64,000 nt of DNA, taken from positions 73,044 to 137,043 of IMG/VR virus record IMGVR_UViG_3300017593_000402, one strand, 5' to 3'. The notes below the pieces were generated by a model, which had not been told where the DNA came from, did not search any database, and worked only from the letters and a program-made list of their open reading frames with translations. Shown in pieces: positions 49,662-60,600 of the stretch (within the stretch, counting starts at the first letter, position 1; each line of letters starts with the position of its first letter). Source of the DNA: a virus. The translations under genes and the position numbers were made by a program.

Positions 49662-50144
49662 ATGGACGACAGACCTACAAAAAGCAGGTTATACCAGTCC
49701 TTGCCGCATGGCAGCGGCATTGACCTAGACTGGTACATTGAGGAAACCCGTAAATCTTTTAGGTGCTACAACGGGTATCACTGTATGGACGAAAACGGGT
49801 TTTACGAGGGGTGGGCCGATTTTGTCTTGATAGTACCAAAAGCTAACCCGTTGGAGTTTAAGCTTCAATTCCGTGGACGCAGGAGCCAATATTTAGCCAG
49901 GAAGCATATGTTAAGAGATTATTTGGAGGACGCATTCCTATTTGCGTTAACAAGCGAATTCCCACGGTATGTCAGCGATATACCAAAACACTATGTTCTG
50001 GTGTACAATAGTCAAGATATAAGGGCGTTGGGAGTCAATCCTTGGGACTACCCACTGATATTCTACGATCCCGAAAGCGAAAGAATTTATGGGATTAAAA
50101 ACAACGTGGCTTATTTGAATTTACCTGTAGTAAGGGTAAAATGA
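49662..50144 (+). CDS. Hypothetical protein
   Basis: LPHGSGID..YHCMDENGFYEGW motif seen in phage early genes. Confidence 0.7.
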   Translation: MDDRPTKSRLYQSLPHGSGIDLDWYIEETRKSFRCYNGYHCMDENGFYEGWADFVLIVPKANPLEFKLQFRGRRSQYLARKHMLRDYLEDAFLFALTSEFPRYVSDIPKHYVLVYNSQDIRALGVNPWDYPLIFYDPESERIYGIKNNVAYLNLPVVRVK

Positions 50145-50155
50145 AAACGTTTTCA
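50142..50155. repeat. 14-bp palindrome overlapping a stop codon
   Basis: Exact copy. Confidence 0.95.
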
Positions 50156-50176
50156 CTAGACTGGGAGGAATTAGAT

Positions 50177-50398
50177 ATGGCACGATTTCAGGGAATAGTT
50201 GAAACTGATAGGGCAAAGAGGACTAGCCGACTAGCGAACAAGTGGGGGACGGTTCAACTAAATACATGGGATAAGGGCGTCCTTGTGGAGGCCCAATACA
50301 ACGACACTACAAAGCAGATAATTTTTTCAGTATGGGAAACTGGGGGGAGCAATTACCCCAGGCCCAAGAAACTGTTAGCTAGAATAGAGGAAGGCTAG
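50177..50398 (+). CDS. Hypothetical protein
   Basis: MARFQG start after GGGAGG. Confidence 0.7.
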   Translation: MARFQGIVETDRAKRTSRLANKWGTVQLNTWDKGVLVEAQYNDTTKQIIFSVWETGGSNYPRPKKLLARIEEG

Positions 50399-50411
50399 TG
50401 TAGGTTTGCAA
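50395..50411 (+). repeat. Third CTAGnGTAGGTTTGCAA copy without a good -10
   Basis: CTAGTGTAGGTTTGCAA. Confidence 0.7.
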
Positions 50412-50482
50412 CCAAGGTCTGCTAAAGCGGTAACTCCATGTCACTAGGGAGGGCCTAGTAGCTCAAAGGCCTAGGTTCTCCC

Positions 50483-50517
50483 GTAGGTTTGCAATAGTTT
50501 TTCGCCTGTGTTAAAGT
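50483..50517 (+). promoter_or_regulatory. Early promoter cassette 4
   Basis: GTAGGT-TTGCAA-17-TAAAGT. Confidence 0.6.
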
Positions 50518-50584
50518 ACAACCAAAACATCGGCAATAACCTTGCCTTGCGAGGGCCGATGAATAGTAAAGGAAGGAGCTAGGT

Positions 50585-50857
50585 ATGGAATTGGTGATTA
50601 AAGGTGTAAGGACTCTGGTTAAGAACGGAGATAGGAAAAGCGAATTGGACGAAGGTAAGCTTGTAGTGGATTTAGAAAACAAAACGTTAATATACGGAAA
50701 AAAGAAGATAGAACTAGAAGGGATAGAAAAGGAAAAATCAATTCATTACCTCTGGGTGCAGGTATTTAGCAATGATGGGAATGTTACCTTTTCGGGTAAC
50801 ATGCTAGAATACAAGCGGAAAAAGAAACAGACCAAAAAATCAAACAGCCTTCTATAG
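50585..50857 (+). CDS. Hypothetical protein
   Basis: AAGGAG RBS; followed by a terminator. Confidence 0.7.
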   Translation: MELVIKGVRTLVKNGDRKSELDEGKLVVDLENKTLIYGKKKIELEGIEKEKSIHYLWVQVFSNDGNVTFSGNMLEYKRKKKQTKKSNSLL

Positions 50858-50866
50858 CCTGCCTTG

Positions 50867-50904
50867 ACTCCCTAGGGTATCGGACACCTAGGGAGTGTTT
50901 TTTT
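50867..50904 (+). terminator. Rho-independent terminator
   Basis: ACTCCCTAGG...CCTAGGGAGT plus T run. Confidence 0.8.
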
Positions 50905-50957
50905 AAGGGCGTGGGCGATTTTTATCAACCCTCCCATACGAAATGTAAAAAGTAAAA

Positions 50958-51235
50958 GTGAAAATGTTTTCACATACAAAATGTAAAAAATGAAAGTGAA
51001 AATATTTTCACGCACAAAATAAAAATGAAAACGTTTTCACTCGCTCAGTGGGAGTGTTTCCAGAAAAAATAAAGTGAGAATATTTTAGGTTGCGAGTGAA
51101 AACGTTTTCACTCATAAAAAATAAATTAGAAGGTGAGGTTGTTCCAGGAATTTATTAAGTGAAAATATTTTCACTGTTGAAGATGTTTTTAGTTTTTGAG
51201 AGTGTGGTTATCCACAAAAGTGAAAATATTTTCAC
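50958..51235. repeat. Cluster of six RTGAAAAYRTTTTCAC palindromes plus degenerate copies and one DnaA-box match
   Basis: Copies start at 50958, 50996, 51025, 51096, 51159 and 51220; TTATCCACA at 51208-51216. Confidence 0.92.
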
Positions 51236-51268
51236 TTTGAAATAAAAAAGTTTTAGTCAAATTTTTTC

Positions 51269-51297
51269 TTGACAGTAATATAAGGTTGTGTTATATT
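51269..51297 (+). promoter_or_regulatory. sigma70-like promoter for the operon containing the RAMP-like gene
   Basis: TTGACA-17-TATATT with TG extension. Confidence 0.75.
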
Positions 51298-51343
51298 ACT
51301 GTCCAAAAAGTAGATGTGAAATGTATTGAAAGGAGGGAGTGTT

Positions 51344-51580
51344 ATGGCAACGATTTTGGTATGCGACCTTTGTGGTAGTAAGCAAAGTGTGAAAAGGTGT
51401 TCTTGGACGATTGATCGAGAGACGGATGCCGCAGGAAGCGCAGACGATGTTTTTATGAATGTAGATTTATGTTTGAAATGCGAAAATCGGTTACTTAGAC
51501 GAGTCATTGATAGTCTAATAAAGGATGAAATAGAGTTCGGTAAAAGGATGTGGGATGAATATAGAAATATTCTTAGGTAA
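51344..51580 (+). CDS. Zn-finger hypothetical protein
   Basis: CDLC...DLCLKC; AAGGAGG RBS. Confidence 0.7.
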   Translation: MATILVCDLCGSKQSVKRCSWTIDRETDAAGSADDVFMNVDLCLKCENRLLRRVIDSLIKDEIEFGKRMWDEYRNILR

Positions 51581-51597
51581 TTAATTATGAAGGGAGT

Positions 51598-51840
51598 GTG
51601 CCAATGGATGCAACGAAAGAGTTAGAAAAGGTAAAGGTTACTCCAGATCAAGAAGCCTGGCTTAAGGAAAGGATAGAAACAGCAATTCAGATGGCAATGT
51701 CATTGAAACAAGCTAGGGAAGTTCAAGCAGACTACTATGCTTATACGTACGGTTTAGATGGCGTGATTGAAGGAACTGCGCTTGAAATTATTCACCTGCT
51801 TGGTCTGGAGCCTGCTTATGTAAATTTGAGACGAAAATGA
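51598..51840 (+). CDS. Hypothetical protein
   Basis: Operon-packed ORF. Confidence 0.65.
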   Translation: MPMDATKELEKVKVTPDQEAWLKERIETAIQMAMSLKQAREVQADYYAYTYGLDGVIEGTALEIIHLLGLEPAYVNLRRK

Positions 51841-51872
51841 ATGTAACTTTATATAGTTTTAAGGAGGTAAAG

Positions 51873-52298
51873 ATGAAAAAATACAAAAAGAAGCCAGTAA
51901 TAGTAAAAGCAGAGAAATGGGCAGGGGAGTTTACGCCTGAGCTTTTGGAAGCATTGAAAGCAAGCGATCGTCGGTTTGCCAAAGCTAGCAATGGAGACTT
52001 ATTAATTTCGACTTTGGAAGGTACTATGCGAGCAGCTAAAGGAGACTATATCATCTTTGGTGTTAATAATGAACCTTATCCTTGTAAACCTGATATTTTT
52101 ATGAAAACTTATGAGAGGGTTGGAGAAGATGAGTCGCCTAAAGTTTGGAGGGTGGCTGTTCTTCTAAAGAAAGACTCGAATGAGTGTGATTTTAGGTACC
52201 GCATTTTAAGACCCCAGTATTATAGCAAAAAATGGTATTGCGGTAAGCTCAGTGGTACTCAGGAATGCACATACGAAAATTGTCCATTTAAGCTATAA
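51873..52298 (+). CDS. PGDYG-like phage protein
   Basis: KKPVIVKA..TLEG..GDYII..YPCKPDIF..TYE. Confidence 0.75.
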   Translation: MKKYKKKPVIVKAEKWAGEFTPELLEALKASDRRFAKASNGDLLISTLEGTMRAAKGDYIIFGVNNEPYPCKPDIFMKTYERVGEDESPKVWRVAVLLKKDSNECDFRYRILRPQYYSKKWYCGKLSGTQECTYENCPFKL

Positions 52299-52301
52299 CA
52301 G

Positions 52302-52502
52302 ATGTATAAGCAGGAAAGAAGGATATTTGAAGGCGAAAGAATCTATGTGCGCTGTCCAAAGAGGAGGGACAAAGGTTTGATACCGATTGGGGCGTGTAAA
52401 TCATGTGCTATATATAATAGGTATGCCGTTGCCTTCGAAACCAATGGGATTGAATTAGAAATGGAGGTAGAAACATGGAAGTGCAGTTCAAAGTCTTCGT
52501 AG
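52302..52502 (+). CDS. Small Cys-rich hypothetical protein
   Basis: CPK...CKSC. Confidence 0.5.
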   Translation: MYKQERRIFEGERIYVRCPKRRDKGLIPIGACKSCAIYNRYAVAFETNGIELEMEVETWKCSSKSS

Positions 52503-52675
52503 AAAAAGAAGAATATGGACATAGCTTGATAATAGGAGAATATGCTGTGTGTCCTACTTGTAACCATGAAAGTTTGAGAAGGCACGTAAGAATAGACCTC
52601 CCTACTTTCGAGGTTACTAAACAAGATTTATTGGAAAAGTTTGAAACTGTAGTGAGGTTTTTGAGCGATGAATGA
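52475..52675 (+). CDS. Hypothetical protein
   Basis: GGAGG RBS. Confidence 0.6.
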   Translation: MEVQFKVFVEKEEYGHSLIIGEYAVCPTCNHESLRRHVRIDLPTFEVTKQDLLEKFETVVRFLSDE

Positions 52676-53003
52676 TTATTATAAATTTTTTCATTTCACA
52701 GTTACGCTTGGATTGGAATGCGGTTTGGATCATCCTATTGAGTGGGCTGTTAATGTATCTAGAACGCCTGGCGGTACTTTGTCTTCTGATTATTATAAAA
52801 GAGTAATCAAATACCTCCCTCGTTATCTAGTAGAAATATTTGAGTGCTTTTATTTGAGACGCCCTGATAACGCTAATGAAGTTTTGAGGATGTGTGACGA
52901 TCATTATCCAGAAGGACATTTATGTAAAGGTTATTTTTCTGCCCTGAAACCAAAAATAGAAGCTTATTTGAAGGAGAATAAAGATGGAAATATTTCATAT
53001 TGA
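52668..53003 (+). CDS. Hypothetical protein
   Basis: Overlapping operon ORF. Confidence 0.6.
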   Translation: MNDYYKFFHFTVTLGLECGLDHPIEWAVNVSRTPGGTLSSDYYKRVIKYLPRYLVEIFECFYLRRPDNANEVLRMCDDHYPEGHLCKGYFSALKPKIEAYLKENKDGNISY

Positions 53004-53178
53004 TTTAGAAAAAGTGGAAAATAGGTGTATTGCTGATCCTTCTTTTTATTCGATAGTCAGCTATTTAGTTAAGTTAATTTTGTCTAAACAGGTGGAGCCT
53101 GTGGATTTGTTTGGAGGAGCTGTCCTTGCTGCAAAAATAGCAGAGACACTGTTAGAGAAGAAACCTTTGACTAATTAG
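52984..53178 (+). CDS. Hypothetical protein
   Basis: AAGGAG RBS. Confidence 0.6.
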   Translation: MEIFHIDLEKVENRCIADPSFYSIVSYLVKLILSKQVEPVDLFGGAVLAAKIAETLLEKKPLTN

Positions 53179-53187
53179 GAGGGAAAT

Positions 53188-53541
53188 ATGTATCTATATA
53201 AATACGAGAAACCTTATTATGTTCTTTGTGAAGATGGGGTAGAGACATGGAGAGGCAAAGAAGTAGCTGTAGCTTTTTCTTACCATCCCAATGAAGCTGT
53301 TTTGTATAAACATGGTGATCCTGAGTTGGTAGAGAAATGGTATCGTGAAATCCTTCGTAGGTTTCGGTTAGTGGCTAATCAATTTATTAAATTTTCTACT
53401 TTTGAAGAGGAAGTAAAGTTTTGGCAGGATGAATTGGAGAGTATCAAGCTTATAAGAGGTAAATTTCCTGTAGATGAGTTGAATAAGTGTTTGAGTATTT
53501 CTGGGTATATCGGGAGGTTTTATGAGCGACTTCAAGATTGA
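53188..53541 (+). CDS. Hypothetical protein
   Basis: GGAGG RBS. Confidence 0.65.
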   Translation: MYLYKYEKPYYVLCEDGVETWRGKEVAVAFSYHPNEAVLYKHGDPELVEKWYREILRRFRLVANQFIKFSTFEEEVKFWQDELESIKLIRGKFPVDELNKCLSISGYIGRFYERLQD

Positions 53542-53704
53542 TTTTCTTGAATATATTGTAAAAGATATATTGGGAGTGGCTCAATCAGAAAAGTGGAAAG
53601 CTAGTGACCAAGTAGCTTCTATCCACGCTGTGTGGATGGAAATTGGACGTAGATTAGGTAAGGAGATGGATAAAATAAGAAAGATGGAAAGAAATGAAAA
53701 GTGA
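53522..53704 (+). CDS. Hypothetical protein
   Basis: GGAGG RBS. Confidence 0.6.
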   Translation: MSDFKIDFLEYIVKDILGVAQSEKWKASDQVASIHAVWMEIGRRLGKEMDKIRKMERNEK

Positions 53705-53716
53705 GAGGAGGTTTTT

Positions 53717-54328
53717 ATGAAAAAATTGGTAGAGTTAGAGGAAAGATTTAATGTAAAAATTAGGTTGTTGGAGCCTTTACTAGGCACGGTTCCTAAAGAC
53801 CAAGAAGTATATAAAAGGTTTATAGCAAGCAAGGCTCCTGACCCTGAAGGAGGAGAAGAAGAGACTGAGACTGTGGTGTCAGTAGAAGAGAAAGGCTGGA
53901 CTGGATTCCATAAGGACGAGAAAGGATTATTTATCTATAATTACATGATTAAAGGCTTTCTTAAAGCCGCTTGTGAAGTGTGTATGAGTGCAGGAGCATT
54001 AGATAAGATTTCAGCATATAAAAAATGGATTGACTTAGTTGTTTTTATCGACCCTCGACGGATTTATTTCGGCAAATACGAACCTGATGGGTGTCTTGAA
54101 AGACCTTTGCGGACTTTAACGCCTAAAGGCCCAAGAGTTAGTGTTTGCAGAAGTGATTATATAAAAGAAGGTACTGAAATAAATTTTATGGTTCGGATTC
54201 TGAAGAATAAGGCAGGGATTGACCAAGTTGCGATAGAACAAATGCTTGACTATGGCCAGTATGTTGGTCTTGGTCAATGGCGAGGTTCAGGAGGTTATGG
54301 AAGATTTGAAATAGTAGAGATAACGTGA
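53717..54328 (+). CDS. Stand-alone RAMP/Cas7(Csm3)-like protein
   Basis: N-terminal strand VKIRLLEPLLG, IKGFLKAA helix, and C-terminal Gly-rich loop GLGQWRGSGGYGRFEI, all RAMP hallmarks; no cas operon or CRISPR nearby. Confidence 0.8.
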   Translation: MKKLVELEERFNVKIRLLEPLLGTVPKDQEVYKRFIASKAPDPEGGEEETETVVSVEEKGWTGFHKDEKGLFIYNYMIKGFLKAACEVCMSAGALDKISAYKKWIDLVVFIDPRRIYFGKYEPDGCLERPLRTLTPKGPRVSVCRSDYIKEGTEINFMVRILKNKAGIDQVAIEQMLDYGQYVGLGQWRGSGGYGRFEIVEIT

Positions 54329-54329
54329 T

Positions 54330-54592
54330 AGTGGCGTTATGTTAGGTGTGGGTGTGGTTCAGTAGACCGAAGTTTCGGTTCAGTGAAGTTCAGTTGAGGC
54401 AAGGCAAAGTAAATTTTAGTCAAGGTATAGTCGAGTTTAGTTGAGGTATTGCTCAGTAACGTTCTGGCAATGTAGCGTGCGAAGTAAAGTTTGGGAATAG
54501 TACTGTATCTTCAGGCACAGGTAAGGTATCGCAAAGCCTTGGAACAGTATCGCATATTTTGGCAAAGGTAAGGCACTGTATGGCTGCGGTGA
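54330..54592 (+). ncRNA. Non-coding NGY-NN pentamer array (candidate guide RNA) directly downstream of the RAMP-like gene
   Basis: 50 units parsed by hand; 46 have G at position 2 and 43 are NGY; grouped into mostly 21- or 26-nt blocks; stops in all three + frames. Confidence 0.7.
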
Positions 54593-54613
54593 ACAAAAGG
54601 AGGTGAGTAATTT

Positions 54614-54949
54614 ATGAAAGTTCTATCAACAGGTCCGTTGGAGTCTCGGTTACAGGTTTTACCTGGGTTACGTGAAAGGAGAGGAGTTCTCTATATAGAT
54701 TTTAATTTTTATATGGAAAACTCACATATAGTAGGAGAGGTGTTTCATAAGTTAAACATAGTTCCAATTCAAGTTAGTACTAATTTAGCTGTTGAGAAAG
54801 TATTCGTTTATTTTGTGAGTCCTTTGTTAGACAAAACTCCTTTAGGGTACAGACCACCTATGTTTGAGGTTGAGATTGAAACTGATGACGGTACATATAT
54901 TAAAAATGTAAAATTAGTAGAAAGAGAGGTTGATAGGTATGAAATGTAA
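54614..54949 (+). CDS. Hypothetical protein
   Basis: AAGGAGGTG RBS. Confidence 0.7.
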   Translation: MKVLSTGPLESRLQVLPGLRERRGVLYIDFNFYMENSHIVGEVFHKLNIVPIQVSTNLAVEKVFVYFVSPLLDKTPLGYRPPMFEVEIETDDGTYIKNVKLVEREVDRYEM

Positions 54950-55349
54950 GATTGAGATTAAAATAGATTTGGAAGAAAAAACTTATGACGTGGATGTTTC
55001 GCCTGACCTTCCAGGGCACTTGTTGGTTTACAAAAATTTAGGGAAAATAGCCCTCCTTCATGCTTTGAAAAACCTTGACTATGGTGACGGAAACCCTCTC
55101 GGTAATTTCAAATTTTCTGAAGAAATTACAGGGGTCCCAGCTTGGAAAGGAGCTTTAGTAAGACTAACTGATAAATGGGGACGTATTAAGTCTATTGTGA
55201 AAAGAAAGGACGAAAAAACTTATGTTGATGAAAGCCTTGATGAAACTCTTCTAGATAACGCTGTTTATAGTCTTATAATTTTGGCACTGAGAGCGAAAGA
55301 AAACAAAAATATGTTTGAAGATGATCTTGATGAAGTATATTATCCGTAA
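54930..55349 (+). CDS. DUF1599/nucleotide-modification-associated helical protein
   Basis: KNLDYG..NF..VRLTDKWGR..DESLDETLLD..VY. Confidence 0.7.
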   Translation: MIGMKCKIEIKIDLEEKTYDVDVSPDLPGHLLVYKNLGKIALLHALKNLDYGDGNPLGNFKFSEEITGVPAWKGALVRLTDKWGRIKSIVKRKDEKTYVDESLDETLLDNAVYSLIILALRAKENKNMFEDDLDEVYYP

Positions 55350-55357
55350 TTTTGGAG

Positions 55358-55371
55358 TGAAAACGTTTTCA
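55358..55371. repeat. 14-bp palindrome just upstream of an RBS
   Basis: Exact; AGTG...CACT flanks. Confidence 0.95.
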
Positions 55372-55387
55372 CTTTTAGGAGGGAATT

Positions 55388-55735
55388 ATGAGAAAAACTG
55401 TGGATTGGGAAGAGCTAGCCAAATCACGAGGGTTTAAGGACCCTAAGCAGCTTATTATTGAGTTATATTATAATCAAAATTTGGGTGACCAAGAAATAAG
55501 CGATATGTTAGGGATTAGTAGACCTACTTTTCAAAGGTGTTTGAAGAGTTATAATTTGCCTGCAAAAGGTGCTATGCTTTCTAAATATATAGCAGGACCT
55601 CCTTGTCCTAAGTGCGGAAGCACAAAAGCTAGAACGATATATTCCAAAGCTCATAGTTATGGTTTTAAACGAATTAAGGTATGTCGTGATTGCAAAAACA
55701 GATTTGTTACTGTTGAATATATCAAAGAAGAGTAG
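55388..55735 (+). CDS. HTH plus Zn-ribbon putative transcription regulator
   Basis: DQEISDMLGISRPTF (HTH); CPKC...CRDCKNRFVTVE. Confidence 0.7.
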   Translation: MRKTVDWEELAKSRGFKDPKQLIIELYYNQNLGDQEISDMLGISRPTFQRCLKSYNLPAKGAMLSKYIAGPPCPKCGSTKARTIYSKAHSYGFKRIKVCRDCKNRFVTVEYIKEE

Positions 55736-55760
55736 ACTTTTTGTATATATTTGTTATAAT
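55733..55760 (+). promoter_or_regulatory. Promoter upstream of the packaging/late operon
   Basis: TAGACT-16-TATAAT with TG extended -10. Confidence 0.5.
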
Positions 55761-55786
55761 CCAGGCATAAAGGCGGTGCCTGGATT

Positions 55787-56182
55787 ATGATAGAGCAGTC
55801 TATCTCTTTAATAAGAAAATTTGAAACTTATCGAAAATTTCCGAGCCGAAATAAGTTCGGATTTTTGAGGATAGGGTATGACCATCCTTTGTGCCTTTCT
55901 GAAAGAAAGGCTTTTCTTTTGCTTAAAGAAGATATTCAGTTTATTTCTGAGCTTCTCAAACAAGAAGGCCTTCCTGTTAATCCAGGCTTAATTTCTCTTA
56001 TTCATCAAATTGGGATAATTACCTTTAAGAAATCCAAACTGAGAAAGGCTTTAGAATCTGGAGATTTTGAAGCCGTGAAAAAGGCTTTTATGTCCTGGTC
56101 TAAGATAAACGGAGTAACGGACCCCGAATTGTATCAACGAAGGGCAAACGAACTGGCTTATTTGGAAAATGGCGCTGCATAG
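55787..56182 (+). CDS. Phage lysozyme-like (GH24) protein with divergent active site
   Basis: LIRKFE...IGYDH...FKKSKLRKAL..FMSW..L.QRRANE. Confidence 0.65.
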   Translation: MIEQSISLIRKFETYRKFPSRNKFGFLRIGYDHPLCLSERKAFLLLKEDIQFISELLKQEGLPVNPGLISLIHQIGIITFKKSKLRKALESGDFEAVKKAFMSWSKINGVTDPELYQRRANELAYLENGAA

Positions 56183-57611
56183 AGTTTACAACTTTGATGA
56201 TGTTCCTACTATTAGAAAGTTTTATCTTTCTAATAAGAAAATTAGGGCAATTGTAGGGCCTTATGGTTCTGGTAAGTCAAGTGGCTGTGTTATTACTTTA
56301 CTAAAAATAGCGACTGAACAACAACCTGACCCAGAAGGAGTCCGTTATACTCGGTTTGTTATAATAAGAAACACCTACCGCCAACTGAAGGACACTACTA
56401 AGAAAACTATAGATGAATGGTTGTCTTTTGCAGAATGGAAAGAATCAGAACATAAGTATATTATCCACGTTCGTCAACAGGATGGTACAATTGTTCATTC
56501 TGAATGGTTACTTCGAGCTTTGGATAGACCCGAACACGTGGCCAATCTTCTATCCTTGGAGGTAACAGCAGGCTGGATAAATGAAGCAAGAGAAATTCCA
56601 AAAGAAATATTTGATAATTTAGAATCTCGCCTTAGGTATCCTCCTACTGTTAGGGATAGTAAAGGAAACGTCATTTATGGGCCTACTTGGACAGGCATTC
56701 TTTTAGATACAAACCCTCCAGATACGGATCATTGGTTTTACAAATATTTCGAGGAAGACCGCCCAAAGAAAGCAGAAATATTTCACCAACCCTCTGGTTT
56801 GTCTCCTAATGCAGAAAATTTGAATAATTTGCCTTCCAACTATTATGAAGACTTAATGGAAGGAAAAGACTCTGAGTGGATTGATGTTTATATTCATGGC
56901 AAATATGGTTCTTTGCGAGAAGGAATGCCTGTATTTACAATGTACAACGATAAGATACATTGTGCCAAAGAACCTTTAGCTCCTGTTCCAGGATTGAATT
57001 ATTTAATAATAGGTATGGATTTTGGGTTAACTCCTGCTGCTGCTATTACACAACAACCGCCAGGGCGGTTATTGGTTTTAGACGAGGTAGTGTCTTTTGA
57101 ACCAATTGATGTTGGGGAATTCACTCGAATGTTTTTGATACCTTTTTTGTCTTCTGAGAAATATAAGTTTAAGCATTATATTATAATAGGTGATCCTGCT
57201 GGAAATACCAGGTCTCAGAACGATGGAAGGACCTGTTTTCAGATTTTAAATCAGTTTGGGATTAGGGCTTATCCTGCTTATTCTAATTCTCTTCAACTAA
57301 GACTTAATGCGGTAAATCAGTATTTGTCTAAAATAGACCCTACTTCTGGGGACGAGCTTAAGCCTGCTTTTTTGTTATCGCCTACTTGTACTGTTTTAAG
57401 AAAAGCCTTGAAATCTAAGTATAGATTAAAGAAAATAAGCATAGGTGGGGAGCGGTATACCAGCGTCCCTGTTAAAGACAAATACTCCCACGTGGTGGAT
57501 GCTCTTCAATATGCAGCTTTAGGGCATATACCTAATAGCGTAAATACTTTGTCAGATTTACCTGTTCGAGATACTTCAAGGACTAAGTTAGTAAGTGTAG
57601 GTTATTATTAA
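56169..57611 (+). CDS. Terminase large subunit
   Basis: GPYGSGKS, WINEARE, DTNPP, GMDFG, SHVVDALQY. Confidence 0.92.
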   Translation: MALHRVYNFDDVPTIRKFYLSNKKIRAIVGPYGSGKSSGCVITLLKIATEQQPDPEGVRYTRFVIIRNTYRQLKDTTKKTIDEWLSFAEWKESEHKYIIHVRQQDGTIVHSEWLLRALDRPEHVANLLSLEVTAGWINEAREIPKEIFDNLESRLRYPPTVRDSKGNVIYGPTWTGILLDTNPPDTDHWFYKYFEEDRPKKAEIFHQPSGLSPNAENLNNLPSNYYEDLMEGKDSEWIDVYIHGKYGSLREGMPVFTMYNDKIHCAKEPLAPVPGLNYLIIGMDFGLTPAAAITQQPPGRLLVLDEVVSFEPIDVGEFTRMFLIPFLSSEKYKFKHYIIIGDPAGNTRSQNDGRTCFQILNQFGIRAYPAYSNSLQLRLNAVNQYLSKIDPTSGDELKPAFLLSPTCTVLRKALKSKYRLKKISIGGERYTSVPVKDKYSHVVDALQYAALGHIPNSVNTLSDLPVRDTSRTKLVSVGYY

Positions 57612-57622
57612 GGAGCTGTGCT

Positions 57623-60600
57623 ATGGTTTCGTTTGTTCCTGTTAACCAAAATCCTACAAAAGCTCTGCCTAAGGACACTATTACCGAAATGGTGGAGCTT
57701 AAACCTCAAGATGAGTTTGTTCTGTCTAATTTAGCTCATTATGTTTTAAGTAAGTTTGAAGAAGCAAAAAGGGCTAAAGTTAAGGTAGAAAAAAGATTAA
57801 TAGATTGTTTGCGAAGATTTCAAAGTAAATACTCTCCAGAGAAATTAAGAGAAATAGAAGCTATTGATGCGCCTCCAATTTATATTCCTTTGACTTCGAT
57901 AAAAGTAAGAGCTTTAACTGCATGGTTGGTGGATGTTCTTTTTCAGACTCCTGACCTTCCTTATGATATAACTCCTACTCCCATCCCAGAATTGCCTATA
58001 GAAGTTCAAAATCTTTTAGCACGTAGGATTTACGAGACAATCCTTCCTATGATGGATTTACTTCCTTTTACAGAGCTTCAGTCTATGGCTTTGGATGCCA
58101 AAAGTTTGGCAGAGAAAGAAATTAAAATAGAAGTAGATAAATGGTCTAAAAAACTGGCGGAAGGATTTAAGAAAAAGCTAGACGATGTTTTTATTGAAGG
58201 AGGACTGCCAGAGGCTTTATCCGCAATGTGTGTGGACATTGCGATTTTTCCTACAGCTATAATTAAAGGCGGAATTCTGAGAAAAGAAAAAGGATATGTA
58301 AGGACCAAGTACGGTTTGGAGCCTAAGAACAAGGTTATTTATACTTTTAATAGAGTTTCTCCTTTCAACGCCTATCCTGCTCCTTATGCCAGTGGCTTTG
58401 AGAATTATTTTATAGAAATTATTCCTCTTCTTCCTGAAGACCTTTATAAATTAATAGGTATGCCTGGTTACAATGCAGAAGTTTTGATTGATGTTTTAGA
58501 TAGATACGAAAATGGGTACAGATTCCATCATTCTAATTATGGTTTAGAACGAGATGAGTTGGAAAGTAAAGATTTTGCTTCTTCATCTGATTATGAGTAT
58601 ATCGATATGTTGGAATTTTGGGGACCTGTTAAAGGTTCCATGTTAAGAGAATTTGGTGTTAGCGTTCCTAGTGATAACGAGTACTACGAAGCTACTGTTT
58701 GGGTAGTAGAAAACTATGTAGTCAAAGCCGTATTAAACGAAAATCCGTTAGGTCTAAAACCCTACGCTAAAGCTTCTTTTATAGACATTCCTGATTCTTT
58801 TTGGGGTCAAGCTCTTCCAGAAGTACTAGCTCCTATCCAAGACTCTGTTAATGCTTTTGCTAGAGCTATAGTAGTTAATTCTATATTGTCTTCTGGACCT
58901 ATGATAGAACGCAACATTGACAGGGTTGACCCTAGCCAGCCTAAGATGGTCATTCCCTGGCACATGTATGACGCCCATGATTCTGCTCTTAATTCTGCTC
59001 CTGCTTATAGGTTTTTTCAACCTCAATTAGTTGCTGATCGTATAGCTAACACTATGGCTTTTTATTTAAAGATGGCAGACGAGACGTGCGGTATACCAAG
59101 CTATGCTCATGGTGATATTACAGTTGGTGGAGCAGGTCGAGCTTTGGCAGATTACGAATTGGTCTTAACTGAGACTGGGGCTAAACCTATTTCCTCTATC
59201 AAAGTAGGAGATAAGGTAGCGGGTACCGATGGCAAGTTTTATGAAGTGTTAGGTGTTTATCCACAGAAAGGAGAGCGTTTAATCTATCGTGTGCATTTTA
59301 GCAATGGGTTTACAGTTGATTGCGATGCAGAACATTTGTGGACTGTCTCCAGTAAACCTTCTAGAAAGAATAGCTGGCAGACTCTGACTTTGACTGAATT
59401 ATTGAATGAAGGAATATTTAGACATGATAGTAATCGTAAGAGTAAGGGCTTAAGACCGAAGTGGGCTGTGCCTAAGATAAAACCAGTACAGTTTCCTGAG
59501 CGTGAAGTAAAGATAGACCCTTATACTTTGGGCGTAATCTTGGGAGACGGAGACAATCGAGGCAGGATTCATCTAAATACAGAAGACAGCGAGCATATAG
59601 TTAGTCAGTTGGCCTATAACGTAGGGAAGCCCAGTTATAACTCCGCTAAGACTGCTGTTTCTTATACAGTTAAAGGTGTAAGGAAGTGGTTAAAGTTCTA
59701 TGGTCTGGGAGGCACAACCGTAACTGATAAATTCATTCCAGAAGATTATCTGTTTAATACCGTAGATGCTCGATTGGCTTTGTTGCGTGGATTGATGGAT
59801 ACGGAAGGTTATGTTAACGAAGGAAGAGTGTTCTTGTCTTCTTCATCTAGAAAACTAATAGAACAGGTAAAATTTCTCGTTATTTCTCTTGGTGGTTGGG
59901 CAGGCGATATAATTGAATACCCCGAAAAAGACGAAGAAGTTAAAGGCCGTCCAATTCATAGAAAGAAGAATTATAGGTTCTATTTTTCTCTGAGTGAAAA
60001 CGTTTTCACTTTGCCTCGGAAGAAGAAAGCAGTAAAGAATGGGAAACGCTCTACACGGTTTGTTTATATTAGAGGAATACAATTGCTGAGCGAAGGCACT
60101 ACTACTTGTATAAAAGTTTCCAGTCCTGATCATTTGTTTTTGTGTGCTAATCTTATTCCAACACATAATACTGCAACAGGACTGTCAATGCTTACAAGTA
60201 ATGCTACTCGTGGTATTAAGGCAGTCTTAAGAAATATAGATAAGGGAATAATTGAACCGATTGTTAAACGCCAATATTATGCGTTGATCAAAGAGGCTAA
60301 TGTGACTGATATTCCTGATCTTAAAATTAGAACAAAAGGTGCGGTCTCTTTGTCTGAAAGAGAAATGGAAGCAACTAGAGCTTTGGAATTTCTTCGAGTG
60401 GTTAGTAATCCTCTCGACCAAGCGATGGTGCCTCCTGAAGGACGACGTTATCTTCTTACTTCTGCTGCAAAAGCTACTGGTTTTGATCCTGATAGAATAT
60501 TTGGTTATGAAGCTGATTTGCCGCAGATGCTTCGGCCTCTTATTGAGGAAACTCAAAGACAGTTTGCACAACAACAAAGTCCTTTAAATAGTCCGCAGAA

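What the first reader, a model, noticed from the sequence alone, without database searches (positions are those of the whole stretch)
54330..54592. Two-level grammar of the array: 5-nt units punctuated into 21/26-nt blocks
Hand parse: agtGG cgtTA tgtTA ggtGT gggTGT | ggtTC agtAG accGA agtTTC | ggtTC agtGA agtTC agtTGA | ggcAA ggcAA agtAA attTT agtCAA | ggtAT agtCG agtTT agtTGA | ggtAT tgcTC agtAA cgtTCT | ggcAA tgtAG cgtGCGA agtAA agtTTG | ggaAT agtAC tgtAT cttCA ggcACA | ggtAA ggtAT cgcAA agcCTT | ggaAC agtAT cgcAT attTT ggcAAA | ggtAA ggcAC tgtAT ggcTGC | ggtGA. Every block after the first starts GG(T/C/A) and every complete block ends in a 6-nt unit. Block starts are 54356, 54377, 54398, 54424, 54445, 54466, 54494, 54520, 54541, 54567 and 54588. 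Fixed scaffold positions with free NN positions is unlike a decayed satellite and suggests processing sites or filament register changes (inference).
Basis: seen in the sequence. Interest (0 to 1): 0.85.

Follow-up and report, generated by a model that had tools for sequence, protein, structure and literature searches.

The report
Staggered VIPR guide-RNA array in phage
The five-base repeat tract is the guide-RNA array of a VIPR system, a CRISPR-related phage weapon first described in 2026, so the pattern is real and functional but belongs to an already published kind.

Summary
The parse is correct. Window 54330-54592 holds 50 units of N-G-Y-N-N, with G at position 2 in 46 of 50. The periodicity (about 5.3 nt) exceeds every one of 2000 shuffles and occurs nowhere else in the 137-kb virus record.

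The tract starts 2 nt after a 203-aa gene (53717-54328). Its predicted fold is a small Cas7-like RAMP, and its glycine-rich loop aligns with the Vipr protein of phage SUSP1 (hhalign 93.9%).

All 31 IMG/VR loci that encode a relative carry such an array beside the gene on the same strand. No other neighbouring gene is conserved.

This matches VIPR systems (bioRxiv 10.64898/2026.04.26.720920). In those, one Vipr protomer binds each repeat and the variable NN dinucleotides pair with target DNA.

The second level is also real and holds across the clade. Runs of mostly 4-7 units are closed by one extra base and followed by GGY, which can be written ((GYNNN)k G)m. This fits the preprint's "staggered vrRNA arrays". 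A run is about one turn of the published filament (5-6 protomers).

Expression, processing and targets could not be shown. The scan has found such arrays before on other DNA. Verdict: new member of a known kind.

The parts
53717..54328 (+). vipr gene: 203-aa stand-alone Cas7-like RAMP protein (RRM core, helical insert, beta-hairpin thumb, C-terminal glycine-rich loop GLGQWRGSGGYGRF)
   Evidence: ORF. There is no Pfam family and only a weak match to phrog_4652. AlphaFold2 gives mean pLDDT 80.3 and pTM 0.73. Foldseek top hits are Cas7 of type VII and Csm3/Cas7-11 of type III, with E from 9.7e-7 and TM about 0.5; 112 matches have E <= 0.001. The profile matches Cas7 (21bh_B, E 0.043) and the SUSP1 Vipr protein (36pp_D, E 0.79) among PDB sequences. 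hhalign against the SUSP1-clade alignment gives 93.9% probability and E 1.5e-7 over 42 C-terminal columns.
54330..54592 (+). vrRNA array: 50 units N-G-Y-N-N in 11 register-slip-delimited blocks plus the first unit of a 12th. Block starts are 54330, 54356, 54377, 54398, 54424, 54445, 54466, 54494, 54520, 54541, 54567 and 54588.
   Evidence: Parse and counts come, and periodicity against shuffles. The same architecture sits next to every vipr homologue found. The tract folds no better than shuffles (z = 0.02) and matches no Rfam family.
54593..54613 (+). short spacer with a GGAGG ribosome-binding site for the next gene; no tail or terminator follows the array
   Evidence: Sequence. No terminator-like site was found in 53100-55400, and no promoter-like site lies between vipr and the array.
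54614..54949 (+). 111-aa ORF directly downstream, of unknown function; not a conserved partner of vipr
   Evidence: No Pfam or PHROG match. A 111-aa ORF in the same position appears only in L001; it is not in any cluster of 4 or more members among the 28 loci compared.

Best explanation
The tract is the guide-RNA (vrRNA) array of a VIPR system, and the 203-aa gene just upstream encodes its Vipr protein. The first step is inferred from layout: vipr and the array are transcribed together on the + strand. The next steps are transferred from the SUSP1 cryo-EM work, not shown here. Vipr protomers bind the RNA one per 5-nt unit. Each conserved G is held between thumb and G-loop, the following pyrimidine sits in a purine-excluding pocket of the next protomer, and the two variable bases (unit positions 4-5) are displayed to pair with double-stranded DNA, skipping every third target base. 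Bound DNA is silenced, probably genes of competing phages.

The second level is a one-base register slip. Each run of k units ends with one more G in register, and the next run starts at the adjacent G. The grammar is therefore ((GYNNN)k G)m. A filament growing in one register reaches a purine where it needs a pyrimidine and stops. A new filament starts on the full GGY one base later. I infer that the array is thereby cut into short guide modules of 4-5 units here and 4-7 across the clade. That is about one turn of the published Vipr helix. This is the layout the discovery preprint calls staggered vrRNA arrays.
For: A Cas7-like fold with thumb and G-loop is predicted. The G-loop region aligns with SUSP1-type Vipr at the same place in a protein of the same length. 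The residues equivalent to SUSP1 W178 and R179, which contact G2 and Y3 in the structure preprint, are W/F and an invariant R here. D177, which contacts G1, is an invariant Q. That fits the relaxed first base, N-G-Y instead of G-G-Y.

All 31 of 31 IMG/VR loci with a homologue (27 distinct; 38-97% identity) have an array of 16-158 units beside the gene on the gene's strand. The array is the only conserved neighbour: the vipr cluster has 26 members and the next clusters have 3. Two human-gut phage records at about 39% identity show the same thing.

The slip grammar holds across the clade. There are 1777 units of 5 nt, 435 of 6 nt, 25 of 4 nt and 14 of 7 nt, and 301 of 405 complete blocks have 4-7 units. 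At 358 junctions, the base after the extra one is G in 78% of cases, against 26-35% at other first positions.

Indels between the window and L001 are one unit (5 nt) and one whole block (26 nt). The substitution pattern is: G fixed, Y toggling T/C, position 1 and the extra base free, and NN changing at about the rate of the flanks.

The published filament has 6 protomers per turn without DNA and 5 with DNA, and five-protomer complexes already engage DNA (10.64898/2026.04.26.720927, Results). The legend of fig. [quoted passage not shown]
Against: No RNA evidence exists for this locus. No target was found. Local searches with the 1-nt-skip rule gave no excess over shuffled guides. Scans of IMG/VR and of JGI metagenomes gave only chance-level hits or none.

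Sequence similarity to a proven Vipr is confined to the C-terminal 42 columns. No conserved accessory (vap) gene is present, although the preprint calls one typical. No 3' tail or pseudoknot follows the repeats, unlike the only experimentally studied type: in SUSP1 the runs are 13-16 uninterrupted units followed by a tail.

Blocks of 4-5 units specify only 8-10 target bases. That is little for a specific guide, and it is not shown that such short filaments work. The preprint states that the staggered layout was not among those confirmed by small-RNA sequencing, and I saw only the legend of its figure.
Confidence: 0.88

Rival explanations
1. It is a VIPR array, but read as one continuous guide or a few long ones. 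The extra base is merely bulged out about once per filament turn, the filament runs on across the slips, and the target continues in the same 3-nt phase.
For: Single blocks are very short for specific recognition. With an in-phase junction, the 11-unit block of L016 plus the block before it match one family of about 28 near-identical phage contigs at 26 of 32 read bases: 18 of 18 were required by the search, and 8 of the next 14 upstream also match, with binomial p 0.01-0.03. The first and last units of a block have A-rich 'variable' bases (A 63% and about 50%), which leaves even fewer informative bases per block.
Against: The conserved G-G at junctions places a purine where the next protomer's pocket excludes purines, according to the structure preprint. 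The L016 hit was picked from a scan whose chance expectation is about 2 independent hits, and 3 independent sequence families were found. Multi-block patterns from the window found nothing: the in-phase junction was scanned in IMG/VR and in metagenomes, the +1 junction in metagenomes only. Only exact matches could be found, so this is weak. A dynamic-programming alignment with flexible junctions over 616,702 positions gave scores no better than shuffled arrays.
Confidence: 0.25
2. The tract acts as double-stranded DNA: a phased protein-binding or packaging (pac-like) site near the terminase genes, with G recurring every half helical turn.
For: The mean period of 5.2-5.3 is half of 10.4-10.6 bp. 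The large terminase gene lies 1.6 kb downstream at 56169-57611.
Against: The element travels with the RAMP gene, not with terminase. The other loci have unrelated neighbours. Its strand always follows vipr: G power exceeds C power in all 31 loci. The non-integer period comes from discrete slips with a sequence signature, not from helical drift. Block sizes range from 4 to 9 or more units.
Confidence: 0.02
3. The array is a decoy or sponge rather than a guide set. It would soak up Vipr of rival phages or redirect it, as the satellite-encoded solo vrRNAs do in 10.64898/2026.10.15.759431 (abstract read).
For: No target was found. The guides are very short. Decoy vrRNAs are documented in that abstract.
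Against: In all 31 loci the array sits beside its own vipr gene, whereas the published decoys are solo vrRNAs without vipr. NN positions are kept between the window and L001 at about the rate of the flanks, which suggests that their sequence matters.
Confidence: 0.05
4. It is a non-functional tandem repeat, such as a decaying satellite or replication-slippage product.
For: None beyond its being a short-period repeat.
Against: The scaffold is kept while the variable positions differ completely between loci whose vipr genes are 69% identical in DNA; the alignments stop exactly at the vipr stop codon. G is fixed in 49 of 50 aligned units against L001, while neighbouring positions change. The same grammar is found in 31 of 31 loci.
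Confidence: 0.01

Closest known systems
VIPR systems with 'staggered' vrRNA arrays (bioRxiv 10.64898/2026.04.26.720920, main text and legend of fig. S18)
   Same: A lone small RAMP gene sits in a phage, flanked by a long gene-free tract of 5-nt repeats with a fixed G-pyrimidine core and variable dinucleotides. Successive guide modules abut with a 1-nt offset or overlap, so that the end of one marks the start of the next.
   Different: I could read only the legend, not the figure or the supplementary tables, so I cannot say whether the published examples have modules as short as 4-5 units, or to which of the seven types this clade belongs. No conserved vap gene is found here. The preprint did not confirm this layout by RNA sequencing.
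Type II VIPR of Escherichia phage SUSP1 (KT454805.2), the experimental exemplar, with cryo-EM structures in 10.64898/2026.04.26.720927
   Same: The protein has the same length (about 200 aa), the same RAMP plan and an alignable G-loop with the G2-stacking aromatic residue and the Y3-contacting arginine. The repeat period is 5 nt and the array is on the gene's strand.
   Different: SUSP1 guides are discrete. Each has 13-16 uninterrupted GGTNN units, a tail of about 40 nt with a pseudoknot, and its own leader. Here the array is continuous, has slips every 4-5 units and has no tails. In SUSP1 the first G is conserved and is read by D177. Here it is free except at block starts, and the equivalent residue is Q. 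SUSP1 has vap1 next to vipr; here there is none.
Non-canonical VIPR repeats (WGT/NN, TGH/NN and others) reported in bioRxiv 10.64898/2026.10.21.760802 (passages read), and the YNNNG / NNNNG repeats in the methods of the discovery preprint
   Same: The repeat core is degenerate at the first base. Here it is R-G-Y in the window and N-G-Y across the clade.
   Different: Those passages describe about 10 repeats per array and do not mention slips.
Cas7 backbone filaments of class 1 CRISPR-Cas (type III Csm3/Cmr4, type VII Cas7)
   Same: These are the best structural matches to the protein. One protomer binds per fixed RNA step, and a thumb interrupts base pairing periodically.
   Different: The step is 6 nt with 5 contiguous pairing bases. 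The guides are spacers between long repeats, made by Cas6 and accompanied by other cas genes. None of that is present here.

Membership tests
VIPR system | Stand-alone small RAMP protein (about 20 kDa) with RRM core, thumb and glycine-rich loop | tested here: met
   The 203-aa protein has an AF2 model with pLDDT 80.3 showing a beta-hairpin at 125-149 and a C-terminal G-loop. Foldseek finds Cas7-family chains first, with E from 9.7e-7.
VIPR system | Homology to an experimentally characterised Vipr protein | tested here: met
   hhalign of the clade profile against the SUSP1-clade profile gives 93.9% probability and E 1.5e-7, but over only 42 C-terminal columns. Against the single SUSP1 sequence it gives 75%. 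hmmsearch against the PDB chain 36pp_D gives E 0.79. The rest of the protein is too diverged to align by sequence.
VIPR system | RNA-contact residues of the G-loop (SUSP1 D177, W178, R179) | tested here: inconclusive
   In the aligned columns, W178 corresponds to W or F, R179 to an invariant R, and D177 to an invariant Q. The thumb arginine R138 and H17 could not be placed, because those regions do not align.
VIPR system | Tandem 5-nt repeats with a conserved GGY-like core and variable NN, next to vipr and on its strand | tested here: met
   All 31 of 31 loci with a homologue have such an array.
VIPR system | No CRISPR array and no other cas genes in the locus | tested here: met
   There is no Rfam match in 50000-58000. 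The 6 ORFs around vipr scanned against Pfam-A and the 10 scanned against PHROGs have no cas-family matches.
VIPR system | Accessory vap gene beside vipr ('typically') | tested here: not met
   No neighbouring ORF cluster is shared by more than 3 of the 28 loci compared. BLAST clustering at E 1e-5 could miss very diverged partners.
VIPR system | vrRNA expressed and bound by Vipr | not testable with these tools
   No RNA run holds this DNA. The runs that were laid are DNA contigs only.
VIPR system | NN dinucleotides match natural DNA targets with a 1-nt skip | tested here: inconclusive
   The best finds are 22 of 24 read bases (L005 block in L036) and 21 of 22 (L016 block in L060). About 1.2 and 0.5 such hits are expected by chance. 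There is no excess in local searches. Blocks of the window are too short for a database search.
VIPR type II (SUSP1-like) | Discrete vrRNAs of 9-16 uninterrupted repeats, each capped by a conserved structured 3' tail | tested here: not met
   The window array has slips every 4-5 units, no tails and a folding z-score of 0.02. SUSP1 and its relatives show runs of 13-20 uninterrupted units plus tails.
Staggered vrRNA array | Adjacent guide modules offset or overlapping by 1 nt, so that the end of one marks the start of the next | tested here: met
   Blocks are 5k+1 nt long, with G-G at the joint in 11 of 11 cases in the window and 78% of 358 junctions in the clade. The definition is taken from a figure legend only.
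Class 1 CRISPR-Cas (type III / VII) | Repeat-spacer array, 6-nt Cas7 step, Cas5/Cas6/large subunit genes | tested here: not met
   The period is 5.2-5.3 nt, not 6. There are no long direct repeats and no cas genes.

The most novel reading that the evidence does not exclude
In this Vipr clade (Q in place of the G1-reading aspartate) the unit of action is a single-turn mini-filament. Each register slip would end one 4-7-protomer complex and seed the next. A 260-800-nt transcript would then yield a dozen or more very short guides of 8-14 read bases. These would work only in numbers, as a combinatorial or tiling repressor set, rather than as single specific guides. That would be the shortest RNA guides known for DNA recognition, and a way of making guides without any processing enzyme or tail.
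Probability: 0.3. Interest if true: 0.6.

Novelty: new member of a known kind. Interest (0 to 1): 0.4.

Why it matters
VIPR is a newly described form of RNA-guided DNA recognition, proposed to predate CRISPR. This locus extends it to a 137-kb virus from hydrothermal-vent metagenomes and to a diverged protein clade that has no accessory gene and no guide tails.

The clade-wide statistics gathered here give a concrete, testable grammar for the 'staggered' layout, which the discovery preprint did not confirm experimentally. They include the module grammar ((GYNNN)k G)m, modules of about one filament turn, A-rich first and last units, a free first base matched by a D-to-Q change in the G-loop, and indels of whole blocks.

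If the short modules act on their own, the minimum guide length for this mechanism is far below the 9-16 repeats studied so far.

Tried and rejected
**Readings considered and dropped.** A TRAP-like RNA-binding ring reading triplets 5-6 nt apart, and a DNA half-turn phasing (pac site), were my first ideas. Both were recalled from memory. I dropped them once the upstream gene proved to be a RAMP and the literature search found VIPR.

**RNA families, folding and transcription signals.**
- Rfam gave no match in 50000-58000.
- Folding is no better than shuffles.
- The promoter/terminator scan found nothing between vipr and the array.

**RNA evidence.** No RNA holder is listed. The four runs that were laid are DNA contigs identical to the window, so they gave no variants, ends or joints.

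**Target search with the published 1-nt-skip rule.**
- Single blocks against the 137-kb record plus 27 loci: 143 hits against 150 for shuffled unit order. Skips of 0 and 2 were likewise flat. Skip 3 only re-found the arrays themselves.
- Whole arrays with flexible junctions: best scores of 10.5-14.5 against 10.5-16 for shuffles.
- Blocks against the 28 vipr genes: 37 exact hits against 42.3 +/- 7.1 for shuffles.
- IMG/VR exact scans with 9 inner units of long blocks. L005 gave 2 hits, one of which extends to 22 of 24. No other block of that array beat its shuffled controls on the same 30-kb contig, apart from the block used as bait. L016 gave 30 hits in 3 independent sequence families: one reaches 21 of 22, and one reaches 26 of 32 across two blocks. 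L026 gave 2 hits with no extension. Two blocks of a gut phage gave 0 hits each.
- Multi-block patterns from the window: an in-phase junction gave 0 hits in IMG/VR and 0 in metagenomes, and a +1 junction gave 0 in metagenomes.
- All hits are at chance level. Only exact matches could be scanned, so real targets with a mismatch would be missed.

**Other blanks and limits.**
- blastn of the region against the phage collection found no match.
- The Aquificae Conch Spring virus homologue (31% identity over 63% of the query) showed no array at my threshold.
- Supplementary files and figures of the preprints were not available, so the type assignment and fig. S18 itself remain unseen.
- I did not run a complex prediction. 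RNA cannot be included, and a blank would say nothing.

Full report
**Observation.** All 263 letters of window 54330-54592 and all listed block starts are reproduced. The tract has 50 units: 38 of 5 nt, 11 of 6 nt and one of 7 nt. G is at unit position 2 in 46 of 50, and a pyrimidine at position 3 in 47 of 50. Position 1 is mostly a purine (A 20, G 19, C 6, T 5).

Ten of the eleven complete blocks are 21 or 26 nt. One is 28 nt because it contains the 7-nt unit. My own parser places two slips differently, so two boundaries are uncertain.

The G periodicity peaks at 5.3 nt with power 4.90. The maxima were 3.03 in 1000 shuffles and 2.24 in 1000 Markov simulations. The signal is unique in the window and in the whole 137,043-base virus record. 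Block-first units start with G in 11 of 11 cases, against 8 of 39 for the others (p = 2e-6).

**Context.** The tract begins 2 nt after the stop codon of a 203-aa ORF (53717-54328, + strand). It ends at the ribosome-binding site of the next ORF. The surrounding genes are phage genes, including a large terminase at 56169-57611.

The 203-aa protein has no Pfam family. Its AlphaFold2 model (pLDDT 80.3) is a small RAMP. The best Foldseek matches are Cas7 of type VII and Csm3/Cas7-11 of type III (E from 9.7e-7, TM about 0.5). A profile of the family touches Cas7 and the 'SUSP1 Vipr protein' among PDB sequences through its glycine-rich loop.

**Relatives.** A scan of IMG/VR found 31 loci (27 distinct) that encode relatives at 38-97% identity. 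In every one, a G-periodic tract lies beside the gene on the gene's strand. The arrays hold 16-158 units. They are usually downstream of the gene, in L014 upstream only, and in L015, L016 and L029 on both sides.

Nothing else is conserved around the gene. After BLAST clustering of the ORFs, the vipr cluster has 26 members and the next clusters have 3. In two loci my ORF filter dropped the vipr ORF. Two human-gut phage records at about 39% identity show the same layout. The protein and the array therefore form a two-part module that moves between unrelated phage backgrounds.

**What it is.** A literature search led to bioRxiv 10.64898/2026.04.26.720920. I read its abstract, Results, Discussion, the first two parts of the Methods and its figure legends. 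It describes VIPR systems: a phage-borne stand-alone RAMP (Vipr) and vrRNAs made of alternating GGY/NN motifs. The NN dinucleotides pair with double-stranded DNA while every third target base is skipped, and the complex silences genes of competing mobile elements.

The companion structure preprint 10.64898/2026.04.26.720927 (abstract and Results read) shows:
- one protomer per repeat;
- a right-handed filament of 6 protomers per turn, which tightens to 5 per turn on DNA;
- G1 read by H17 and D177;
- G2 held between R138 and W178;
- the pyrimidine held in a purine-excluding pocket of the next protomer.

I located the SUSP1 locus (KT454805.2) and built an alignment of its clade. The profile-profile comparison with the window's clade gives 93.9% probability (E 1.5e-7) over the last 42 columns, at the same position in proteins of the same length. 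In that stretch the G2-stacking tryptophan is W or F here, and the arginine is invariant. The G1-reading aspartate is an invariant glutamine. This fits the observation that the first base of the unit is free in this clade.

**The second level.** In 27 loci plus the window I counted 1777 units of 5 nt, 435 of 6 nt, 25 of 4 nt and 14 of 7 nt. Of 405 complete blocks, 301 have 4-7 units, with modes at 5 (114 blocks) and 6 (92 blocks).

At 358 clean junctions the base after the extra one is G in 78% of cases, against 26-35% G at other first positions. The fourth base of the first unit is A in 63%. The two 'variable' bases of the last unit are A in about half the cases.

The simplest statement of the grammar is ((GYNNN)k G)m. 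Each run is closed by one more G in register, and the next run starts at the adjacent G. In the old register the next pyrimidine position is then occupied by G, which the published pocket excludes. So a filament should end there, and a new one should start one base later on a full GGY. That step is my inference.

This agrees with the legend of fig. S18 of the discovery preprint: 'staggered vrRNA arrays ... [quoted passage not shown] I could not see the figure or the supplementary tables. The main text says that small-RNA sequencing confirmed the hammerhead and single-guide layouts, not this one.

SUSP1 and its relatives are built differently. They have 13-20 uninterrupted units followed by a tail. 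The window array has no tail, folds no better than shuffles (z = 0.02) and has no promoter or terminator of its own. It is therefore probably co-transcribed with vipr (inference).

**Evolution.** Against L001 (protein 97% identical) the array aligns with two indels: one of 5 nt (one unit) and one of 26 nt (one block). Differences per unit position 1-5 are 12, 1, 16, 5 and 8 of 50 (p = 0.0006 for uniformity). All 16 changes at position 3 are T<->C. The extra base differs in 3 of 13 cases, and the flanks in 20 of 188.

So G is fixed. The pyrimidine and the first base drift freely. The NN bases are kept about as well as the coding flanks. That is what an information-bearing code aimed at the same targets would show.

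Against L002-L006 (vipr DNA 66-69% identical) the alignments stop within or at the end of vipr. For L002 the alignment ends exactly at the stop codon, and the arrays share nothing but the scaffold.

**Targets.** I could not find any. Local searches with the 1-nt-skip rule show no excess over shuffled guides. Exact scans of IMG/VR with the inner nine units of long blocks gave hits at the chance rate. The best are 22 of 24 and 21 of 22 read bases, where about 1.2 and 0.5 such hits are expected.

One hit family matches two adjacent L016 blocks in phase at 26 of 32 read bases. This is a weak hint for reading across a slip. Multi-block patterns from the window found nothing.

Blocks of 4-5 units read only 8-10 bases, so they cannot be traced in large databases. 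The same fact raises the question of how they could be specific.

No RNA data exist for this virus. DNA contigs from four hydrothermal-vent metagenome runs are identical to the window over the parts they cover.

**Verdict.** The block structure is real, is conserved across the clade, and corresponds to the published 'staggered' layout. Whether each block acts as its own one-turn guide (my preferred reading, about 0.45 on its own) or the filament reads through (about 0.25) is open.

Earlier follow-ups in this scan reached the same classification for similar arrays on other DNA. I derived the grammar before seeing them.

This is a new member of a known kind. It is of moderate interest because this layout is experimentally untested and the modules here are unusually short.

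Noticed in passing
window 54930-55349: A 139-aa ORF two genes downstream of the array has a weak match to DUF1599, 'nucleotide modification associated domain 1' (E 7.8e-4, below the Pfam cut-off), and to phrog_1485 (E 8.6e-12). It hints at DNA modification genes in this virus.
   Followed up: no
window 55388-55735: A 115-aa protein combines an N-terminal helix-turn-helix with a C-terminal NrdR-like zinc ribbon (E 1.2e-6), just upstream of an endolysin-like 131-aa ORF and the large terminase. It could be a small terminase or a regulator.
   Followed up: no
L093:2087-2511: In a distant relative of the SUSP1 Vipr (37% identity), the array is punctuated by a recurring 7-nt unit (ggtCAGT / ggtCAGA) every 6-13 units. 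This is another kind of punctuation, different from the 1-nt slip.
   Followed up: no
L015, L016, L029: Three of the related loci carry two arrays, one on each side of the vipr gene. Both are on the gene's strand.
   Followed up: partly
L060 (minus strand, offset 2239) and L040:139-164: The 11-unit block of the L016 array matches 21 of 22 read bases starting exactly at an ATG start codon in a 105-kb viral contig. Together with the preceding block, it matches 26 of 32 read bases at the 3' end of a gene in about 28 near-identical 35-40-kb phage contigs. In both cases the skipped base falls on the codon's third position. Both are compatible with chance.
   Followed up: partly
L098 (BK013345.1, Aquificae Conch Spring virus) 1704-2462: A 252-aa hypothetical protein of this hot-spring virus matches the C-terminal two thirds of the window's Vipr (31% identity) and has a G-loop-like end. 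My parser found no 5-nt array in the 257-nt gap behind it.
   Followed up: partly
L096, L097 (MT835520.1, MT835513.1): In the human-gut phage relatives the third unit position is often A (tgaAC, agaAT, ggaAT). Only the G is strictly kept there, while the block grammar with AAY|GG junctions is the same.
   Followed up: partly
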